Shown piece by piece: positions 9,677 to 28,392 of a DNA stretch of 28,392 bases (positions are counted from its first letter, which is position 1; the number at the start of each line of letters is the position of its first letter). The translations under genes and the position numbers were made by a program. The notes below the pieces were generated by a model. That model had not been told where the DNA came from. It worked only from the letters and a program-made list of their open reading frames with translations, and did no database searches. The DNA comes from Tubiluchus corallicola (Eukaryota > Animalia > Priapulida), in NCBI GenBank assembly GCA_030141605.1, contig JAQGDQ010001708.1:1-28392 (forward strand), written 5' to 3'.

Positions 9677-9749
9677 GGGGGATTAGCTCAAATGGTAGAG
9701 CGCTCGCTTAGCATGCGAGAGGTAGCGGGATCGATGCCCGCATCCTCCA
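9677..9749 (+). tRNA. trnA-AGC: tRNA-Ala (anticodon AGC)
   Basis: 73-nt cloverleaf. Acceptor stem GGGGGAT/ATCCTCC with the G3:U70 alanine identity pair, D arm GCTC/GAGC, anticodon stem CTCGC/GCGAG with loop TTAGCAT, T arm GCGGG-ATCGATG-CCCGC, discriminator A. Confidence 0.97.
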
Positions 9750-11918: not shown

Positions 11919-12337
11919 TAGGCGTGGGCATCGAACATTCGAATTCGATTCGAACGAGTTTTTTTTAGTTCGAATCCGATTCGAACCTAAATTATGTATT
12001 CGAATAATTCAGCACTTCAGCCACATACGTTCTTTATCATTGAAATGTTTAAGACAACATACAGTTAGCACAATTTAGCTGCAGTTTCTGTGCAACAGTT
12101 AGCACAATTTAGCTCCAGTTTCTGTGCAAAATTTTTAACAAACTACTGCAGAACAAAATCAAGTAACATGCATGATATTCGTACGACCATATTTCACTGC
12201 TGGTTCGTAAACTTGTTCGAAAATCTTTCAAACTCAATTCAAATTTTATTGGGATTCGAAATACTGAAATTCAATTTGAATTCTGGAGTCACAAATTCGA
12301 TTCGAATTCACTTTCTGGTGGAGAATGCTCACTTCTA
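11919..12337. mobile_element. hAT MITE, older copy of the same family as 15851-16248
   Basis: Colinear homology throughout (CGAATAATTCAGCACTTCA, GAGAATGCTCAC), degenerate TIRs TAGGCGTGGGCAT/ATGCTCACTTCTA, decayed TSD, internal ~34-bp duplication near 12060-12128. Confidence 0.85.
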
Positions 12338-15850: not shown

Positions 15851-16248
15851 TAGGGGTGAGCATCGAAAGTTCGAGTTCGAACGAGTTTTTTAGTTCAAAC
15901 TCGATTCGAATCCAAAACTATAGATGCGAATAATTCAGCACTTCAATCACATATGTTCCTGATCACTAAAACGATTGAAACATCATGCAATTAGCGTAAT
16001 TTAGCTGTGATTTCTGCACACAATTTTAGAGAAATTACTAGTCGTTTATTGTAGAACAAAATCTAGTGATACACATGATCTTTGTAAGACTAATTTTTAC
16101 TGTTGGTTCGAAAACCTGTTCAAAAATCATTCAACCTCAATTCGAATTCGGTTCGAATTCGAAACACTGAAGTTCGGTTCGATTCAAATTCGAAAGTCAA
16201 ATTCGGTTCGATTCAAATTCGCTGTCTGGTAGAGAATGCTCACCCCTA
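15851..16248. mobile_element. hAT-superfamily MITE (TTCGAA-rich family), intact copy
   Basis: Perfect 13-bp TIR TAGGGGTGAGCAT/ATGCTCACCCCTA, perfect 8-bp TSD ATGAATAG (15843-15850, 16249-16256), subterminal TTCGAA/TTCGAT repeats. Confidence 0.93.
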
Positions 16249-19735: not shown

Positions 19736-19801
19736 ATGTCAGTCAACTATGCAGAGGGGCTTTCGCCGTATGATAACAAAGGAAAATGTGGTCAGCCGGA
19801 G
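19736..19801 (+). CDS. SIRT6: SIRT6 coding exon 1 ([22 protein letters not shown])
   Basis: ATG at 19736, donor GTAAAG at 19802. Acceptor TTTTCTTTTCTAG ending at 19660 suggests the exon starts at 19661. Confidence 0.95.
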
Positions 19802-22800
19802 GTAAAGATCTTACTTTTGTGCATTTTCATTCATATTCGTAGCGTATTCTTAACTCCTTAACAACCGTAAGTGTTTGTTGTGTGTTATCGTTCACATTTG
19901 TAGTGTATTCCTAACTTCTTAAAGGAAAACCGGATGATTGTGTAAACACGAGTTCAGAATAAAGAATGCTCTAAAATGTTGAAAACTAAAATAGTATTTT
20001 TAAACCAAAGCTCACTGATTTTCTCAAGGTTATATTTTTCAGTGCACAGCCTGCACCTCAACTTCAATGTGGATTATCTCAGCTTAGAAATAACATAGAG
20101 TGATGAACTTGGTATCAAAATGATGCTCATGAAATAGAGATTCAGGATGTGTGAATTACTAGAAAAGCTTAATTGCTGCACACATATAGTTATACATTTC
20201 ACGCTTACTACTGATTGTTTGTTACAGATTTTGGAATCGCCGGACGTGATTCGTGACAAAGTCAAGCAACTGTCGGACCTAATCAAGTCATCCAATCATG
20301 TTGTCGTCCACAGCGGAGCGGGGGTCAGCACCGCTGCCGGAATTCCTGACTTTAGGTATGTCTATCGTCTAGAGTTTATAGATTATTAAGTGTTGGCTGA
20401 TCGATTGCCTTGCCTTATTATTTCCTTCTGCATGCGTGTGCGGTCAGTATGGTTGTCGAGGTGTGCCGACCACAGTGTGCGGTCAGTATAGCTGTCGAGG
20501 TGTGCCGACCACAGTGTGCGGTCAGTATAGCTGTGGAGGTGTGCCGACCATCGTGTGCGGTCAGTATAGTTGTCGAGGTGTGCCGACCACCGCATGCGGT
20601 CAGTATAGCTGTGGAGGTGTGCCGACCATCGTGTGCGGTCAGTATAGCTGTAGAGGTGTGCCGACCACCGCATGCGGTCAGTATAGCTGTCGAGGTGTGC
20701 CGACCACAGTGTGCGGTCAGTATGGTTGTCGAGGTGTGCCGACCACAGTGTGCGGTCAGTATAGCTGTCGAGGTGTGCCGACCACAGTGTGCGGTCAGTA
20801 TAGCTGTGGAGGTGTGCCGACCATCGTGTGCGGTCAGTATAGTTGTCGAGGTGTGCCGACCACCGCATGCGGTCAGTATAGCTGTGGAGGTGTGCCGACC
20901 ATCGTGTGCGGTCAGTATAGCTGTAGAGGTGTGCCGACCACCGCATGCGGTCAGTATAGCTGTCGAGGTGTGCCGACCACCGTGTGCGGTCAGTATAGTT
21001 GTCGAGGTGTGCCGACTACCGCGTGCGGTCAAATATAGCTGTCGAGGTGTGCCGATCACCGCGTGCGGTCAGTATAGCTGTGGAGGTGTGCCGACCACCA
21101 CGTGCGGTCAGTATAGCTGTCGAGGTGTGCCGACCACCGCATGCGGTCAGTATAGCTGTCGAGGTGTGCCGACCACCGCGTGCGGTCAGTATAGCTGTCG
21201 AGGTGTGCCGACCACCGCATGCGGTCAGTATAGCTGTCGAGGTGTGCCGACCACCGTGTGCGGTCAGTATAGCTGTCGAGGTGTGCCGACCACCGTGTGC
21301 GGTCAGTATAGCTGTCGAGGTGTGCCGACCACCGTGTGCGGTCAGTATAGCTGTGGAGGTGTGCCGACCATCGTGTGCGGTCAGTATAGTTGTCGAGGTG
21401 TGCCGACCACCGCATGCGGTCAGTATAGCTGTCGAGGTGTGCCGACCACCGTGTGCGGTCAGTATAGCTGTCGAGGTGTGCCGACCACCATGTGCGGTCA
21501 GTATAGCTGTCGAGGTGTGCCGACCGCCGTGTGTGGTCAGTACAGCTGTCGAGGTGTGCCGACCACCGTGTGCGGTCAGTATAGCTGTCAAGGTGTGCCG
21601 ACCACCATGTGCGGTCAGTACAGCTGTCGAGGTGTGCCGACCAGCGTGTGCGGTCAGTATAGCTGTCAAGGTGTGCCGACCACCATGTGCGGTCAGTATA
21701 GCTGTCGACCACCGTGTTTCATTAATTGTAATGTTTTTGTGGATAACGGCACACTTCTGATTTTAGTCATCCAACTTTAGTTGAATCAGCATGTTTTACG
21801 GTGATGCGACTGTAGCCATTCAACCGTCATTTTTTGCAATTTTTTTTCTTTTTTTTGAAGCCAAATTTTTATCTTATCAGAAATTTTTTTACTCGACTTC
21901 ATGCATTAAACGGTACATATTGCATTATTGTGTTCTGAAAACCCATTTGCAACAGTGCAGTTATACAAATGCACATTTTTGCATCCCAACTGACCACTGA
22001 ATGCTAGCCGTCTGTGTCAAGCGAGACCTGGGAGCAAGGAATCTGTTGCCATAGTAACAAGACTACTTAAAATTCCCAAGGTCGCCCATGGCTAGGTTCT
22101 GTGTTTATTGTTTAACCGCTGTCTAGAATTAAATGTTCACAAAAGAGAAACTGCTAGCAGGTAAGCAAGATATATGGGTGGTTTCAAATAAACAGAAAGA
22201 AATTTTTTTTAATCTTTTCTAATTATACAGAATAAATCAATTTGATTAATTACGCTGCTGTCCCTGTTGGAATCCATCGCGTTGCTGGCTATGCCAATTT
22301 TTACATTTCTATAGTTATAAGTTATATAAGTATATAAGTTTATTTATTTCCACTCTGCAGTAAATATAAATATAAATGCAGTATTATCCAGAAATTACAA
22401 AATGCAGCATATACAGTTGCAAATTACATTACACGTTTGGTTTTTTGCTACCCCCCCCCCCCCGGTAAGTTTAATAACCATAATATGAGTGGTTTTGCTT
22501 CTCTTAAGATTTCCTCCATGATGTAGAAGGAGAGTGTATAATGTGCATTACTGGTCTGCCAACTTTACTGCTTACTTTATTGCCAAATAGGTAATGAGAG
22601 CTGCTTATTCTTTACCTATTTGGCTCCTGGGAAATACTTAATTAGTACATCATAGCCTCTGCCTATATGAACTGGTTGTATGTTTGTAAAATCTACCACT
22701 GATGATGACAGCAGTAGCCTGTCGAAACGTTTGGCATGATTTTAATTATGTAAAGTAAAAGTTTTAATAAAGTTATGTTCTGTTTAATTATAAATAGTTA

Positions 22801-25726
22801 TAAGTTTATTTATTTCCACTCTGTATCTAACAGTTATAATAAAAATACAGATAATTTCACTGAAGTAAATATAAATATAAATGCAATATTATCCAGAAAT
22901 TGCAAGAGATTCTTATGCAGCATATACATGTACAAATTACATTACAGAGTAATTTTGATGCATACAGTTTGAGCTTAAAAGCATAGCTTGACAGGCCAAA
23001 CTGTACATGGAAATCTTAAAGAAAGTTACTTCATACAGATATCATCACATCTTTCTCTTGTGCAAAATTTAGGACGATTTTAGTTGGCACCCGACTAACT
23101 TTAGTCGTAAGTGTGCCAATAGCGGTCGGTCTCTCATATCGTTGTGCATTCTTTCTTTCAGAGGTCCGAAGGGGGTTTGGACCTTGGAGGAAAAGGGGTT
23201 GAGGCCGGAGGTAAACGTGACGTTCGACGGAGCACGCCCGACGTTCACGCACATGGCGCTCGTCGGTCTGGAGCGAGCCGGATTCATCCACTACGTCATC
23301 AGTCAGAACATCGACGGGCTCCACCTGCGCTCCGGTTTCCCGCGGAACCGGCTGAGTGAGCTGCACGGGAACATGTTCGTGGAGCAGTGCCGCACTTGCG
23401 ACAAGTACGTGGAGAATGTTGTTTAGACCTTGAAAGAGAGAAAGAGGAAGGAGAAGAGGAAAGAACAGAGAAAGACGAAGGTCGAAAAAGAGGGTAGAGG
23501 AGGAAAAAAGATGGGGAAAAGGTGAAAGGTTTTAGGAAAATTTAGCTTAATAAAGTTCTAAAAAGAAATAGAGAGAGAAGGACAGAAGAGAGAGAAAAGA
23601 AAGCGAGGAGGAGGAAAAGAGAGGCAGAGTAAAGGAGGGACGAAAGAGTGAAGCGGAGGAAAGGTGAGCAGAAATTGGAGAGGGCGAGTGAGCGACCGTA
23701 GGGAAATTTAACTTATTAACTTACTAATAATAATAAACGGAAATTTTGTTTTGGTAAAATCCCCGGTTAAGGGAAGGTGTCATGTTTTTTCGAAAACCAT
23801 TTCCTGTTTGCTCAAGCGTAAATCTCGAGGTAATCTTAGTTAATGTTTGTCATTGTTGTCTCTTTGGTTGTTAAACATGCTGTTTTGTCAAGTTGGCCAT
23901 TTTTGCAGGCAGTTTGTGCGTTCGGCGGCCGTGAAAACCTTGGGTCTGAAACCGACCGGAAATAAGTGCGGAGATAAGAAGAGAAACGGACGCATTTGCA
24001 GGTACGCATTGTTTGATTTACCTGCATTGTTTCATTTACCTGTGGAAATTACGTAAAGAATAAACGAAGTTTTATTTACTGACTTAACAGCAGACTAAAC
24101 TATGAACTAAGTGTTTTTGCAGTTTTTTTGTAAAATTGCTATTTCAAATAAACACTGCTACCCGATAAAGTTCTGCATTCCTGGGGCATATCTTTGCTTA
24201 AAGGAAAGAAGAAGTCATTCTGCATGTTGAGTTTATTTTACTGTTATCACTTAAACTGTTTGTGGTGTGCTAAAGGAAAGAACAAGTCATTCTGCATGTT
24301 GAGTTTATTTTACTGTTATCACTTAAACTGTTTGTGGTGTGCTAAAGGAAAGAACAAGTCATTCAGTATGCTGAGTTTATTTTACTGTTATCGCTTAAAC
24401 TGTTTGTGGTGTGCTAAAGGAAAGAACAAGTCACTCAGCATGTTAGGTTGATTTTACTGTTTTCACTTAAACTGTTTGTGGTGTGCAAAAGGAAAGAACA
24501 AGTCACTCAGTATATTGGGTTTATTTTACTGTTATCACTTAAACTGTTTGTGGTGTGCTAAAGGGAAGAACAAGTCACTCAGTATGCTGAGTTTATTTTA
24601 CTGTTATCACTTAAACTGTTTGTGGTGTGATAAAGGAAAGAACAAGTCATTCAGTATGCTGAGTTTATTTTACTGTTATCACTTAAACTGTTTGTGGTGT
24701 GCTAAAAGAAAGGACAAGTCACTCAGCATGTTGGGTTGATGTTACTGTTATCACTTAAACTGTTTGTGGTGTGCAAAAGGAAAGAACAAGTCACTCAGTA
24801 TGTTGGGTTGATTTTACTGTTTTCACTTAAACTGTTTGTGGTGTGCAAAAGGAAAGAACAAGTCACTCAGTATATTGGGTTTATTTTACTGTTATCACTT
24901 AAACTGTTTGTGGTGTGCTAAAGGGAAGAACAAGTCACTCAGTATGCTGAGTTTATTTTACTGTTATCACTTAAACTGTTTGTGGTGTGCTAAAGGAAAG
25001 AACAAGTCACTCAGTATGCTGAGTTTATTTTGCTGTTATCACTTAAACTGTTTGTGGTGTGATAAAGTTCTGCATTCCTGGGGCTTATATTTGCTTAAAT
25101 GTGTATCTCAGCTCAGATGTGTTAGTTTGTGACACATTGCACACATGCGACATCTCATGCATGAGTACAGCGGTAAATTTGAAATTTGGATTTTTATCTT
25201 AAAACTTGCCTAGTTTTACTACAACACACTGAATCTCTTACAGTAACGCTGTACTTCAATTTTCACTTTTGCAAATATGTACAACACGCTCGTGGAATAT
25301 TTTTGCTGTTGAAAATTATGTTAGTTTGTGATGTCATCGATAGTTACGCTCGTCCCTCATTAATTAAGATTTTAATCTATTTTTTAATTATCAGAAATAC
25401 TTTTCCAGTATTACTGTTGTTGAAATGTATAATTTTTTACTGTGCTTGAAACTGCGGTAAATATATGAAAAATCGTCCTGTCTTCGTTTAAAAGGAAAAT
25501 CTTTAATGTACCACTTGTAATTTACTTTGTGCAGAGGAAATCTTCATGATACTATCCTGGACTGGGAGGATTCCCTACCGGGAAAAGATCTGGAATTAGC
25601 TGATGCTCACTCACGGTATGCTGCTCCCGTTCATTTATATTTGTTACGATGATGATGATGACGATGATGATGGTGATGTGATGATGTTGATGATGATGAT
25701 GGTGATGACGATGGTGATGATGATGT

Positions 25727-25761
<35 letters not shown>

Positions 25762-25771
25762 ATGATGGTGG

Positions 25772-25802
<31 letters not shown>

Positions 25803-25859
25803 AATGATGATGATAGTAATTTCGTTTTGGACATAGTCCAGGGATAACAGCTTATAGTA

Positions 25860-25890
<31 letters not shown>

Positions 25891-27056
25891 TGCAAATGAT
25901 AATAATAATAATAATAATGACAATAATAATAATTTTGTTTTGGACATAGTCCAGGGATAACAGTTAAGGTATTCAATACTTACTTCTAAAAATGTACCGA
26001 TTATTATTATCCTCGCGTTACCACTTTTTATCGCAGAACCAACCGTACCATTTTTTAACTCTTTGGTATGATTCGGTCGAGGTTTGAACTCACGACCTCC
26101 CGGGTGGGAAATGGGCATGCTAGCATTAGACCTAAGAGAGCTCAAACTAAAACAACGTTAATAATATCAGCTATACCTCCGGAAGGTTTATGTTAATGTT
26201 TCTTTAGCTTGAGCTCTTTCGGGTCTTTTTGTCACGTGCGCGCCACCGACAAATAGGTGCTGTACCGTGATAAGCAAGATCACGAACTGCAGTGTTCGTT
26301 TGTGACATCAGTGTGACGTAGAGCTCATTTTTGTGACATCACATCAGCATCACATCGCTTACTCAAACGTGCTTGACATGCAGGGAAGATGCTTGCCCTT
26401 GCACGAACTGTGGTTAGTTTGTGACATAAGTGATAGCCGCGTTTGGTAGCTAGTAATTAACTTTCCAAAGGTAATTATTCAAATATAAGAAATAACTGCT
26501 AACTTTTATCGACAGGAAAATGTATAATTTGGACAGTAAAATGAGCTTGAGTCTAAATAATCGACCGCTTCTCCTTTAAATGAAAAATAGAATGACAGTA
26601 GCCACTAGTTGTTAATGCCTATGAAGTGATACATTACCATTGACACATGTATTCATACATTGTGAACGTTGTTGTCAAAGGTTAACACATTTCTAGTACT
26701 CTTCTCAACCCACGCAATGTTCGGCAAAGCTGCTGGGAATGCAAAAGATCTGGGTTCGAATCCTCTTTGAGATTGAAATTTTTCTCTACGTTAAATTTAT
26801 TTGCTCTTGCACGCTTGACGAGTTAACTGACGTTTGTTACAGGAACGCAGATGTGAGTATTTGCCTGGGTTCATTTACCAGATGGTGATGATGATGATGG
26901 TGGTGATGATGATGATGATGATGATGTTGATGATCATGATTATGGTGATGATGATGATGGTGGTGATGATGATGATGTTGAAGATGATGTTGATGTTGTT
27001 GATGATGATGATGATGATGATGTTGTTGTTGTTGTTGTTGGACTTTAAAAAGTCTA

Positions 27057-27145
<89 letters not shown>

Positions 27146-27331
27146 GATGTTGAAGATGATGTTGATGTTGTTGTTGTTGATGATGATGATGATGACATTT
27201 GTTACAGGAACGCAGATCTGAGTATTTGCCTGGGTTCGACGCTTCAAATCGTTCCCAGCGGAAATCTGCCTCTCGCGACGAAGAAAAATGGCGGAAAAAT
27301 CGCGATAGTGAATCTCCAGCCAACGAAACAC
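19736..27331 (+). CDS. SIRT6: NAD-dependent deacylase sirtuin-6, spliced and 3'-incomplete: join(19736..19801,20228..20355,23162..23404,23909..24001,25535..25615,27208..27331)
   Basis: Six GT-AG-bounded exons (66+128+243+93+81+124 = 735 nt) splice in frame. The product has the SIRT6 N-terminus [35 protein letters not shown], catalytic ELHGN, four Zn-binding Cys (CRTC, GNKC, RIC), ILDWED, LGSTLQI and VNLQPTKH. No stop codon is reached within the window. Confidence 0.96.
19923..20010 (+). mobile_element. Kolobok-like element, left-end fragment in a SIRT6 intron
   Basis: TTAA|AGGAAAACCGGATGATTGTGTAAACACGAGTTCAGAATAAAGAATGCTCTAAAAT is identical to the sequence at 10771. Confidence 0.7.
20228..20355 (+). 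CDS. SIRT6: SIRT6 coding exon 2 (ILESPD...[14 protein letters not shown])
   Basis: Acceptor TTTGTTACAG, donor GTATGT at 20356, NAD-binding GAGxS motif. Confidence 0.95.
20436..21717. repeat. 39-bp GC-rich minisatellite x~33 in the SIRT6 intron after coding exon 2
   Basis: Unit GTGTGCGGTCAGTATAGCTGTCGAGGTGTGCCGACCACC, with one 1-nt deletion near 21030. Confidence 0.97.
22691..22740 (+). ncRNA. Minimal type I hammerhead ribozyme motif (Penelope-like-element class)
   Basis: CCA-CTGATGA-T-[GACAG CAGTAGC CTGTC]-GAAA-CG-TT-TGG. Both core strands are present, with a 5-bp stem II, a palindromic loopless stem III (ACGT) and stem I CCA/TGG extendable by ATC/GAT. Confidence 0.7.
23162..23404 (+). CDS. 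SIRT6: SIRT6 coding exon 3 (GPKGVWT...SQNIDGLH...[15 protein letters not shown])
   Basis: Acceptor CTTTCTTTCAG, donor GTACGT at 23405, catalytic His. Confidence 0.95.
23432..23690. repeat. Purine (GA)-rich low-complexity tract
   Basis: Direct inspection. Confidence 0.8.
23909..24001 (+). CDS. SIRT6: SIRT6 coding exon 4 ([20 protein letters not shown]...GRIC)
   Basis: Acceptor TTTTGCAG, donor GTACGC at 24002, phase-compatible with both neighbours. Confidence 0.93.
24197..25066. repeat. 72-bp minisatellite x~12 in a SIRT6 intron
   Basis: Unit AAAGGAAAGAACAAGTCAYTCAGYATGYTGRGTTTATTTTACTGTTATCACTTAAACTGTTTGTGGTGTGCT. Confidence 0.97.
25535..25615 (+). CDS. SIRT6: SIRT6 coding exon 5 ([26 protein letters not shown])
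   Basis: Acceptor TTTGTGCAG, donor GTATGC at 25616, ILDWED motif. Too short for the ORF track. Confidence 0.93.
25648..25933. repeat. (GAT)n followed by (AAT)n microsatellites
   Basis: Direct inspection. Confidence 0.95.
26010..26140 (-). mobile_element. tRNA-derived SINE fragment with Meta/MESC-like core
   Basis: Minus strand reads degenerate A box TAGGTCTAATGC, B box GAGTTCAAACC, then ATCATACCAAAGAGTTAAAAAATGGTAC, which resembles the conserved Meta-SINE domain as I recall it. Confidence 0.62.
26235..26575 (+). mobile_element. Kolobok-like element, body plus right end
   Basis: Body is homologous to 10950-11160. Ends ...CTTCTCCT|TTAA, and the last 34 nt match the reverse complement of the 10771 terminus at 24/34. 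Confidence 0.62.
26881..27195. repeat. (GAT/GTT)n compound microsatellite
   Basis: Two tracts separated by GGACTTTAAAAAGTCT. Confidence 0.95.
27208..27331 (+). CDS. SIRT6: SIRT6 coding exon 6 ([21 protein letters not shown]...VNLQPTKH)
   Basis: Acceptor TTTGTTACAG, donor GTAAGT at 27332. Confidence 0.94.
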
Positions 27332-27696: not shown

Positions 27697-28392
27697 TTAA
27701 CATCTAAGGTTGGGCAGTCAATGTATTATGTGTTATGTCTGTAGTTATCAGTTTAACATCTAAGGTTGAGCAGTCAATGTATTATGTGTTATGTCTGTAG
27801 TTATCACTTTAACATCTATGGTTGGGTAGTCACTGTATTATGTGTTATGTCTGTAGTTATCACTTTAACATCTAAGATTGGGCAGTCACTGTATTATGTG
27901 TCATGTCTGTAGTTATCAGTTTAACATCTAAGGTTGGGTAGTCAATGTATTATGTGTTATGTCTGTAGTTATCACTTTAACATCTAAGGTTGGGTAGTCA
28001 ATGTATTATGTGTTATGTCTGTAGTTATCAGTTTAACATCTAAGGTTGGGTAGTCAATGTATTATGTGTTATGTCTGTAGTTATCACTTTAACATCTAAG
28101 GTTGAGCAGTCAATGTATTATGTGTTATGTCTGTAGTTATCACTTTAACATCTAAGGTTGAGCAGTCACTGTATTATGTGTCATGTCTGTAGTTATCAGT
28201 TTAACATCTAAGGTTGGGTAGTCAATGTATTATGTGTTATGTCTGTAGTTATCACTTTAACATCTAAGGTTGAGCAGTCACTGTATTATGTGTCATGTCT
28301 GTAGTTATCAGTTTAACATCTAAGGTTGAGCAGTCAATGTATTATGTGTTATGTCTGTAGTTATCACTTTAACATCTAAGGTTGAGCAGTCA
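27697..28392. repeat. 56-bp minisatellite x>12, running off the window end
   Basis: Unit TTAACATCTAAGGTTGRGYAGTCAMTGTATTATGTGTYATGTCTGTAGTTATCAST. Confidence 0.97.

What the first reader, a model, noticed from the sequence alone, without database searches (positions are those of the whole stretch)
22560..22790. Minimal hammerhead ribozyme in a Penelope-pLTR-like cassette, sense to the SIRT6 pre-mRNA
Seen: CTGATGA (22699-22705), stem II GACAG/CTGTC (22707-22723), GAAA (22724-22727), CG-T-T, and stem I CCA/TGG with an ATC/GAT extension. Predicted cleavage is after GUU at 22731. Upstream are a perfect 13-bp inverted repeat (GCCAAATAGGTAA 22582-22594 / 22612-22624) and a TATA-like CCTATATG; downstream is AATAAA (22766-22771). 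Known: minimal type I hammerheads with a palindromic stem III occur in Penelope-like element pLTRs and retrozymes and cleave mainly as dimers. Inference: this is a solo pLTR or retrozyme relic that is co-transcribed with SIRT6 and could cut or terminate the nascent intron. With only one copy, activity may be weak or need a trans partner.
Basis: partly seen in the sequence, partly recalled or inferred. Interest (0 to 1): 0.8.

Follow-up and report, generated by a model that had tools for sequence, protein, structure and literature searches.

The report
Penelope-type hammerhead relic in SIRT6 intron
An intron of the SIRT6 gene of an invertebrate animal holds one intact minimal hammerhead-ribozyme motif inside a copy of a high-copy repeat, likely a leftover end piece of a Penelope-like retrotransposon; such motifs are common in animal genomes and a lone copy is predicted not to cut its RNA.

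Summary
The motif is real: a complete minimal type I hammerhead at 22696-22734 (+), not matched by any of 300 shuffled windows under the strict descriptor. It lies on the sense strand of SIRT6 intron 2. It is not a unique element. Hundreds of contigs of this repeat family lie on it in public DNA runs, and this copy is part of a ~708-nt insertion (22317-23024) in another repeat. In other animals' DNA the same hammerhead architecture recurs with compensatory stem II changes, and in one contig it sits in the pLTR of a complete Penelope-like element (RT plus GIY-YIG), 91% identical over 43 nt. No coding remnant is left in the window, and the autonomous partner in this genome was not seen, so PLE origin is inferred. 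A role in cutting or ending the SIRT6 pre-mRNA is not supported: there is no second hammerhead in the window, a published minimal PLE hammerhead was inactive as a monomer, the TATA box is mutated in this copy, and the AATAAA is at background density. A new member of a known kind. The scan's index held no look-alike stretch on other DNA.

The parts
22696..22734 (+). Minimal type I hammerhead: 3-bp stem I, core CUGAUGA, unpaired U at 22706, 5-bp stem II, GAAA, palindromic ACGU in place of stem III, U17 at 22731 (predicted cleavage 3' of 22731)
   Evidence: architecture shared with 73 family-type matches in other animals' DNA
22688..22743 (+). Distal 6-bp extension of stem I (22688-22693 with 22738-22743) beyond a 2x3 internal loop
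   Evidence: the family mostly has T at 22693, giving a U-G pair
22605..23024 (+). High-copy repeat segment that carries the hammerhead; likely 3' part (pLTR-like) of a Penelope-like element
   Evidence: summed contig depth about 4,900-39,700 against 8.5-13.8 in unique bins of run X1; 783, 1018, 173 and 8 contigs laid on 22660-22770 in X1, X2, X3, X5
22664..22671 (+). Mutated copy of a family TATA box about 30 nt upstream of stem I (G at 22669 here, A in about 98% of summed depth)
   Evidence: promoter function not tested
22766..22771 (+). AATAAA, also seen in family loose-end letters; background density in this AT-rich DNA
22582..22624 (.). 13-bp perfect inverted repeat at the 5' edge of the high-copy segment; left arm mostly locus-specific; likely an inverted 5' junction piece
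   Evidence: z -4.3; depth 237 in 22548-22604 against 4,862 in the next bin
22434..22547 (.). Single-copy-depth spacer inside the insertion; origin unexplained
   Evidence: depth 8.5-8.8 in X1
22317..22433 (+). Second, partial copy of the same repeat (matches 22789-22946 with deletions); holds no hammerhead
   Evidence: 83-91% identity in two blastn pieces
22206..22316 (.). Left part of an older host repeat interrupted by the insertion; resumes at 23025-23060
   Evidence: joint 22316 to 23025 skipping 708 nt in 2 contigs of X1 (depth 792) and 1 of X3, with 3 other letters between
20356..23161 (+). SIRT6 intron 2 (GT-AG), between exon 2 (20228-20355) and exon 3 (from 23162); predicted cleavage site 430 nt before the 3' splice site

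Best explanation
The motif is an intact minimal type I hammerhead carried by one dispersed copy of a high-copy repeat, likely the non-coding 3' end (pseudo-LTR) of a Penelope-like retrotransposon, that lies on the sense strand of SIRT6 intron 2 and is predicted to be a passive passenger there. In the parent element the hammerhead would cut tandem element transcripts as a dimer, two copies pairing through the ACGU palindrome to build stem III (inferred from the literature and the anatomy). Reverse transcription that stopped early would leave 5'-truncated pieces with the hammerhead but no ORF, often with a second partial copy and a short inverted piece at the 5' side; this locus has that layout (shown in sequence, mechanism inferred). 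Alone in the pre-mRNA it lacks a stem III partner, so the intron would be spliced out uncut (inferred, untested).
For: Motif unique and above chance in the window. It has the hallmarks listed in PMC4209133: unpaired base between positions 9 and 10.1, G10.1-C11.1, palindromic 15.2-16.2, short stem I. The same architecture was found 81 times in 78 metagenome loci; 66 of 81 have at least 4 contiguous bp in stem II, which the search left free. In 14 chosen sequences 92.9% of stem II cells pair and 23 cells change on both sides. L001 is a complete PLE: 814-aa frame with RT (E 7.6e-7) and C-terminal GIY-YIG (E 0.005, under the curated cut-off), then the hammerhead 261 nt after the stop, then the ORF's first residues again; its hammerhead is 91% identical to the window's over 43 nt. 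5 of 70 family-type loci have an RT or endonuclease frame 160-261 nt upstream on the same strand. 11 of 44 family-type matches with enough flank have an inverted piece of 13 nt or more upstream, against 3 of 150 random window positions and 0 of 8 chance matches. In this organism the segment is a high-copy repeat inserted in another repeat, and copies carry changes in the catalytic core, e.g. G12 in 4-6.5% of depth, like the neighbouring CpG positions. Active dimer -19.5 kcal/mol against -27.8 for two folded monomers.
Against: No RT or GIY-YIG remnant in the window (0 tblastn hits from 120 PLE proteins, no HMM hit), and no genome was held, so the link of this family to an autonomous PLE was not seen. 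Similarity to L001 is limited to the 43-nt ribozyme. Compensatory changes inside this organism's family could not be phased from the tables. The upstream partial copy ends 78 nt short of the downstream one, and 22434-22547 is single-copy, which a simple partial tandem does not explain. No clear target-site duplication. Folding energies ignore tertiary contacts and proteins.
Confidence: 0.8

Rival explanations
1. It is a dispersed monomer of a non-LTR retrozyme: a non-autonomous tandem family that makes circular RNAs by hammerhead cleavage and borrows PLE proteins.
For: High copy number without any ORF; family TATA box and AATAAA flank the hammerhead; direct repeat with about 500-nt spacing at this locus; bioRxiv 10.64898/2026.07.22.740005 reports many monomeric copies and derives retrozymes from PLE pLTRs, so the two readings overlap.
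Against: No tandem unit with two hammerheads here; no high-depth head-to-tail joint through the hammerhead (one search shows one short back-joint at depth 5.8); the hammerhead is the minimal PLE type, whereas PMC7229834 ties retrozyme arrays mostly to canonical type I motifs.
Confidence: 0.12
2. This copy acts on SIRT6: it cleaves the nascent intron with a family RNA as trans partner, or ends transcription early at its AATAAA.
For: Sense orientation and intact core; hundreds of family copies could supply partner RNA; the locus-specific segment also stands in a second study's run (X3 record 10).
Against: No cis partner in the window; active dimer disfavoured; monomer inactive and dimer weak for a tested minimal PLE hammerhead (PMC4209133); GUU is a slower triplet than GUC (recalled); AATAAA at background density; about 44% of Xenopus tropicalis retrozyme copies lie in introns (bioRxiv 10.64898/2026.07.22.740005), so an intronic position is ordinary.
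Confidence: 0.06
3. The motif is a chance match in AT-rich intron DNA.
For: No Rfam hammerhead model matched 20000-25500 at E up to 10; the monomer's lowest-energy fold is not the hammerhead fold (z -1.9).
Against: 0 of 300 shuffles under the strict and medium descriptors; same architecture with compensatory stem II changes in other animals, next to PLE ORFs; Rfam models expect a real stem III, which this type lacks (inference).
Confidence: 0.02

Closest known systems
Minimal type I hammerheads (min-HHR) in pLTRs of metazoan Penelope-like elements (Cervera and de la Pena 2014, PMC4209133)
   Same: Short stem I, unpaired base at the 5' side of stem II, G10.1-C11.1, palindrome in place of stem III, many dispersed single copies; pairs on opposite strands seen in 3 of 78 fetched loci.
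   Different: Stem II is 5 bp (7-8 bp in the Schistosoma motifs); stem I has a 6-bp distal extension; no ORF at this locus and no autonomous partner seen in this genome.
EN+ Penelope-like elements with C-terminal GIY-YIG (Craig et al. 2021, PMC8557442); example here: locus L001
   Same: 5' truncation, a partial upstream copy, a short inverted piece at the 5' side, hammerhead near the 3' end.
   Different: No RT or endonuclease sequence left; about 290 nt of repeat follow the hammerhead, against about 55-110 nt in the L001 family.
Non-LTR retrozymes of animals (PMC7229834; bioRxiv 10.64898/2026.07.22.740005)
   Same: Non-coding, high-copy, type I hammerhead, low GC, often intronic.
   Different: Not in tandem at this locus; minimal rather than canonical hammerhead; no circular RNA data.
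Ultraconserved intronic hammerheads of amniotes and the CPEB3 HDV-like ribozyme (PMC6765202 passages)
   Same: Self-cleaving motif in the sense strand of a host intron.
   Different: Those are few-copy, conserved motifs; this is one of many variable copies of a repeat and is predicted to need a dimer.

Membership tests
Minimal type I hammerhead (PLE type) | Core CUGANGA, GAAA and U-H with stems I and II, ends joined in stem I | tested here: met
Minimal type I hammerhead (PLE type) | Unpaired base between positions 9 and 10.1, G10.1-C11.1 pair, palindromic 15.2-16.2 | tested here: met
   against PMC4209133
Minimal type I hammerhead (PLE type) | Compensatory changes in stems across related motifs | tested here: met
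   stem II across about six families from other animals; stem I was fixed by the search pattern and is not evidence; not phased within this organism's family
Minimal type I hammerhead (PLE type) | Self-cleavage as a dimer | not testable with these tools
   needs an in vitro assay; only folding energies computed
Penelope-like element (autonomous copy) | RT plus GIY-YIG ORF next to the hammerhead | tested here: not met
   no remnant in the window; met for L001 in another animal
Penelope-like element (truncated or non-autonomous copy) | Dispersed high-copy repeat carrying the hammerhead | tested here: met
Penelope-like element (truncated or non-autonomous copy) | Partial tandem and inverted 5' pieces | tested here: inconclusive
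   partial upstream copy and 13-bp inverted arm present, but the copies do not share a 3' end and 3 of 150 random positions reach 13 bp
Penelope-like element (truncated or non-autonomous copy) | Same repeat found as the pLTR of an ORF-bearing copy in the same genome | not testable with these tools
   no genome held; read-laying tables give only 30 letters of flank
Non-LTR retrozyme | Head-to-tail units, each with a hammerhead | tested here: not met
   one hammerhead in the window; arrays elsewhere in the genome not excluded
Non-LTR retrozyme | Unit-length linear and circular RNAs | not testable with these tools
   no usable RNA run

The most novel reading that the evidence does not exclude
Transcripts of this abundant repeat family pair in trans with the many intronic copies, using the 8-nt palindrome AAACGUUU (created by the U17 kept in 73 of 73 family-type matches) to nucleate the dimer, and so cut host pre-mRNAs such as SIRT6: a transposon-driven, ribozyme-based control of host transcripts.
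Probability: 0.05. Interest if true: 0.7.

Novelty: new member of a known kind. Interest (0 to 1): 0.2.

Why it matters
As read here it adds one more animal family to the thousands of minimal PLE hammerheads already described, and matters mainly for repeat annotation of this genome. It would matter more if a lone intronic copy were shown to cleave with a trans partner, since the in vivo role of PLE hammerheads is still open (PMC4209133, PMC8557442). The constant U at the cleavage site across several families is a small, testable lead on how these dimers form.

Tried and rejected
Rfam scan of 20000-25500: no hammerhead family at E up to 10, four weak unrelated matches. Whole genome not held. 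No RNA holder listed; the one run guessed to be RNA laid 0 contigs; neither says anything on expression. Pattern scans of viral contigs and of prokaryote genome contigs: 0 matches. PLE protein remnants in the window: none; the 72-codon open frame at 22754-22972 matched no PLE profile and is treated as chance. Eight of the 81 metagenome matches (L008, L011, L028, L046, L059, L063, L075, L076) have 0-1 bp of stem II and lie among long ORFs; they were set aside as chance before the U17, inversion and alignment counts. The 'goes back about 500' joints are read as family contigs switching between the two partial copies, not as tandem arrays. The frequent changes at 22719 and 22720 (35-42% of depth) would weaken or rearrange stem II in a subfamily; they could not be phased, so no covariation claim rests on them. 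The 13-bp hairpin as a conserved RNA element: rejected, its left arm is at low depth. Lunse et al. on PLE hammerhead dimers was not held; it is cited only through PMC6765202. A search for papers with 'Penelope-like', 'pLTR', 'TATA' and 'hammerhead' found 0; one for 'GUU' with these terms listed no paper holding all four. Earlier scan notes: none near this place, none by sequence.

Full report
Observation. The motif reads: 3-bp stem I, core CUGAUGA, one unpaired U (22706), 5-bp stem II closed by G10.1-C11.1, GAAA, the palindrome ACGU in place of stem III, U17 (22731), and a 6-bp distal extension of stem I. It is the only descriptor hit on both strands of the window. 0 of 300 dinucleotide shuffles gave a hit with the strict or medium descriptor and 7 of 300 with the loose one. 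A covariance model built from this motif and 13 related ones finds no second copy in the window (next best E 0.53; the motif itself matches by construction). Rfam gave no hammerhead match, and the monomer's lowest-energy fold is not the hammerhead fold.

Gene context. Exon 3 (from 23162) translates to a sirtuin piece whose best-named relatives are SIRT6 of brachiopods, molluscs and echinoderms at up to 80% identity, so the host is likely an invertebrate animal. Six SIRT6 coding pieces map on the + strand from 19736 to 27331. The motif is in intron 2 (20356-23161), 430 nt before the 3' splice site. The mapped pieces cover only the first 245 of 413 residues of the query, so the gene may run past the window, and a later hammerhead in the pre-mRNA is not excluded.

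It is one copy of a high-copy repeat. No genome was held, so public runs were used. On 22660-22770, at 80% likeness, 783 contigs were laid from X1, 1018 from X2 (same sample as X1), 173 from X3 (another study) and 8 from X5. Most are 90-99% alike to this copy. In X1 the summed depth is 8.5-13.8 in unique bins and 4,900-39,700 across 22605-23060. The tool warns that summed depth is no copy number; hundreds to a few thousand copies is my estimate. Contigs join 22316 to 23025, skipping 708 nt (2 contigs at depth 792 in X1, 1 in X3), so the whole cassette sits in an older repeat. Inside it, 22317-22433 is a partial second copy of 22789-22946, 22434-22547 is single-copy, and the high-copy part begins near 22605. 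The left junction shares 6 letters with the repeat's own sequence and there is no clear target duplication.

The flanking motifs. The TATA-like word is a mutated family TATA box: A instead of this copy's G at 22669 in about 98% of depth in X1 and X3. The AATAAA appears in family loose ends, but such words occur once per ~355 nt nearby and 4 times in this intron. The 13-bp inverted repeat folds well (z -4.3), yet its left arm lies in a low-depth bin. Among fetched family-type matches with 150 nt of upstream flank, 11 of 44 have an inverted piece of 13 nt or more, against 3 of 150 random window positions. PMC8557442 describes inverted 5'-truncated pieces as typical of PLE insertions. I read the repeat as an insertion by-product (inference; 13 bp is at the edge of chance).

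Related motifs elsewhere. A scan of metagenome contigs with stem I and the core fixed and stem II free gave 81 matches in 78 loci. 66 of 81 have at least 4 contiguous bp in stem II; 8 with 0-1 bp lie among long ORFs and were set aside as chance. In an alignment of the window motif and 13 of the 73 family-type matches, chosen by me to span the stem II variants, 92.9% of stem II cells pair, 4 of 5 pairs change on both sides, and 0 of 500 shuffles reach the covariation score. These sequences come from about six families, so the counts are inflated by kinship and by my choice. [quoted passage not shown] Its hammerhead is 91% identical to the window's over 43 nt, with no similarity outside it. 5 of 70 family-type loci have an RT or endonuclease frame directly upstream on the same strand (L001, L049, and the mutually identical L014, L034, L074); most of the rest are short solo pieces, and 3 of 78 loci have two hammerheads on opposite strands. 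All 73 family-type matches have U at position 17 although C was allowed, and about 96% of depth in this organism does too, so GUU is the normal state and not decay.

Mechanism. Shown: an intact minimal hammerhead in a dispersed, non-coding repeat copy, with no PLE protein remnant in the window (0 hits from 120 proteins and from a 45-sequence profile). Inferred: the repeat is the 3' end of a Penelope-like element or a non-autonomous derivative; in the parent the motif would cleave tandem transcripts as a dimer. For this copy, a single tested minimal PLE hammerhead showed no cleavage and dimers or trimers only low cleavage (PMC4209133). The computed active dimer (-19.5 kcal/mol) is less stable than two folded monomers (-27.8), than a dimer using the 8-nt palindrome (-22.5) and than the best dimer fold (-30.2) (no tertiary terms). 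Genomic copies carry changes at the catalytic G12 in 4-6.5% of depth, like neighbouring CpG sites, which fits neutral decay after insertion. I therefore expect no effect on SIRT6 (about 6% for the opposite), though nothing here tests it.

Literature seen. PMC4209133: parts 1-2 of 4 of the text (results, discussion). bioRxiv 10.64898/2026.07.22.740005: parts 1-2 of 5. PMC8557442, PMC7229834, PMC6765202: keyword passages. Others: search listings only. Supplements were not read; the supplementary alignments of PMC4209133 may already show motifs with U17 or a close family. That GUU cleaves more slowly than GUC is recalled.

Verdict. A real, well-formed motif of a known kind in an ordinary setting. 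New member of a known kind; interest 0.2.

Noticed in passing
L001:50-2900 (also L049, L048, L029): Complete Penelope-like element from animal DNA in a metagenome: 814-aa RT plus GIY-YIG frame, hammerhead-bearing pLTR and a repeat of the ORF start; many solo pieces of the same family end about 55 nt after the hammerhead.
   Followed up: partly
L014:1043-3464 (same as L034, L074): Divergent PLE-like RT frame (26% identity to L001 over 459 aa) with no GIY-YIG match, followed after 160 nt by a minimal hammerhead with a 4-bp stem II; may be an endonuclease-lacking element.
   Followed up: no
window 22725-22732 and loci L001-L078: U17 is kept in 73 of 73 family-type matches; it extends the stem III palindrome to 8 nt, which could nucleate or trap dimers.
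   Followed up: partly
window 22206-22316 and 23025-23060: Another high-copy repeat family, split by the hammerhead-bearing insertion; not identified.
   Followed up: partly
window 20435-21708, 24199-25067, 27697-28392: Minisatellite arrays of 39, 72 and 56 nt units inside SIRT6 introns.
   Followed up: no
window 9677-9749 (+): tRNA-Ala(AGC) gene followed by a T run, about 10 kb upstream of SIRT6.
   Followed up: no
window 11986-12279 and 15912-16182: Two diverged copies (73-77%) of a dispersed repeat rich in TTCGAA words; possibly a MITE-like element.
   Followed up: no
window 21864-22205: Moderately repeated segments with several internal joints in runs X1 and X3, probably another small repeat family in the same intron.
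   Followed up: no
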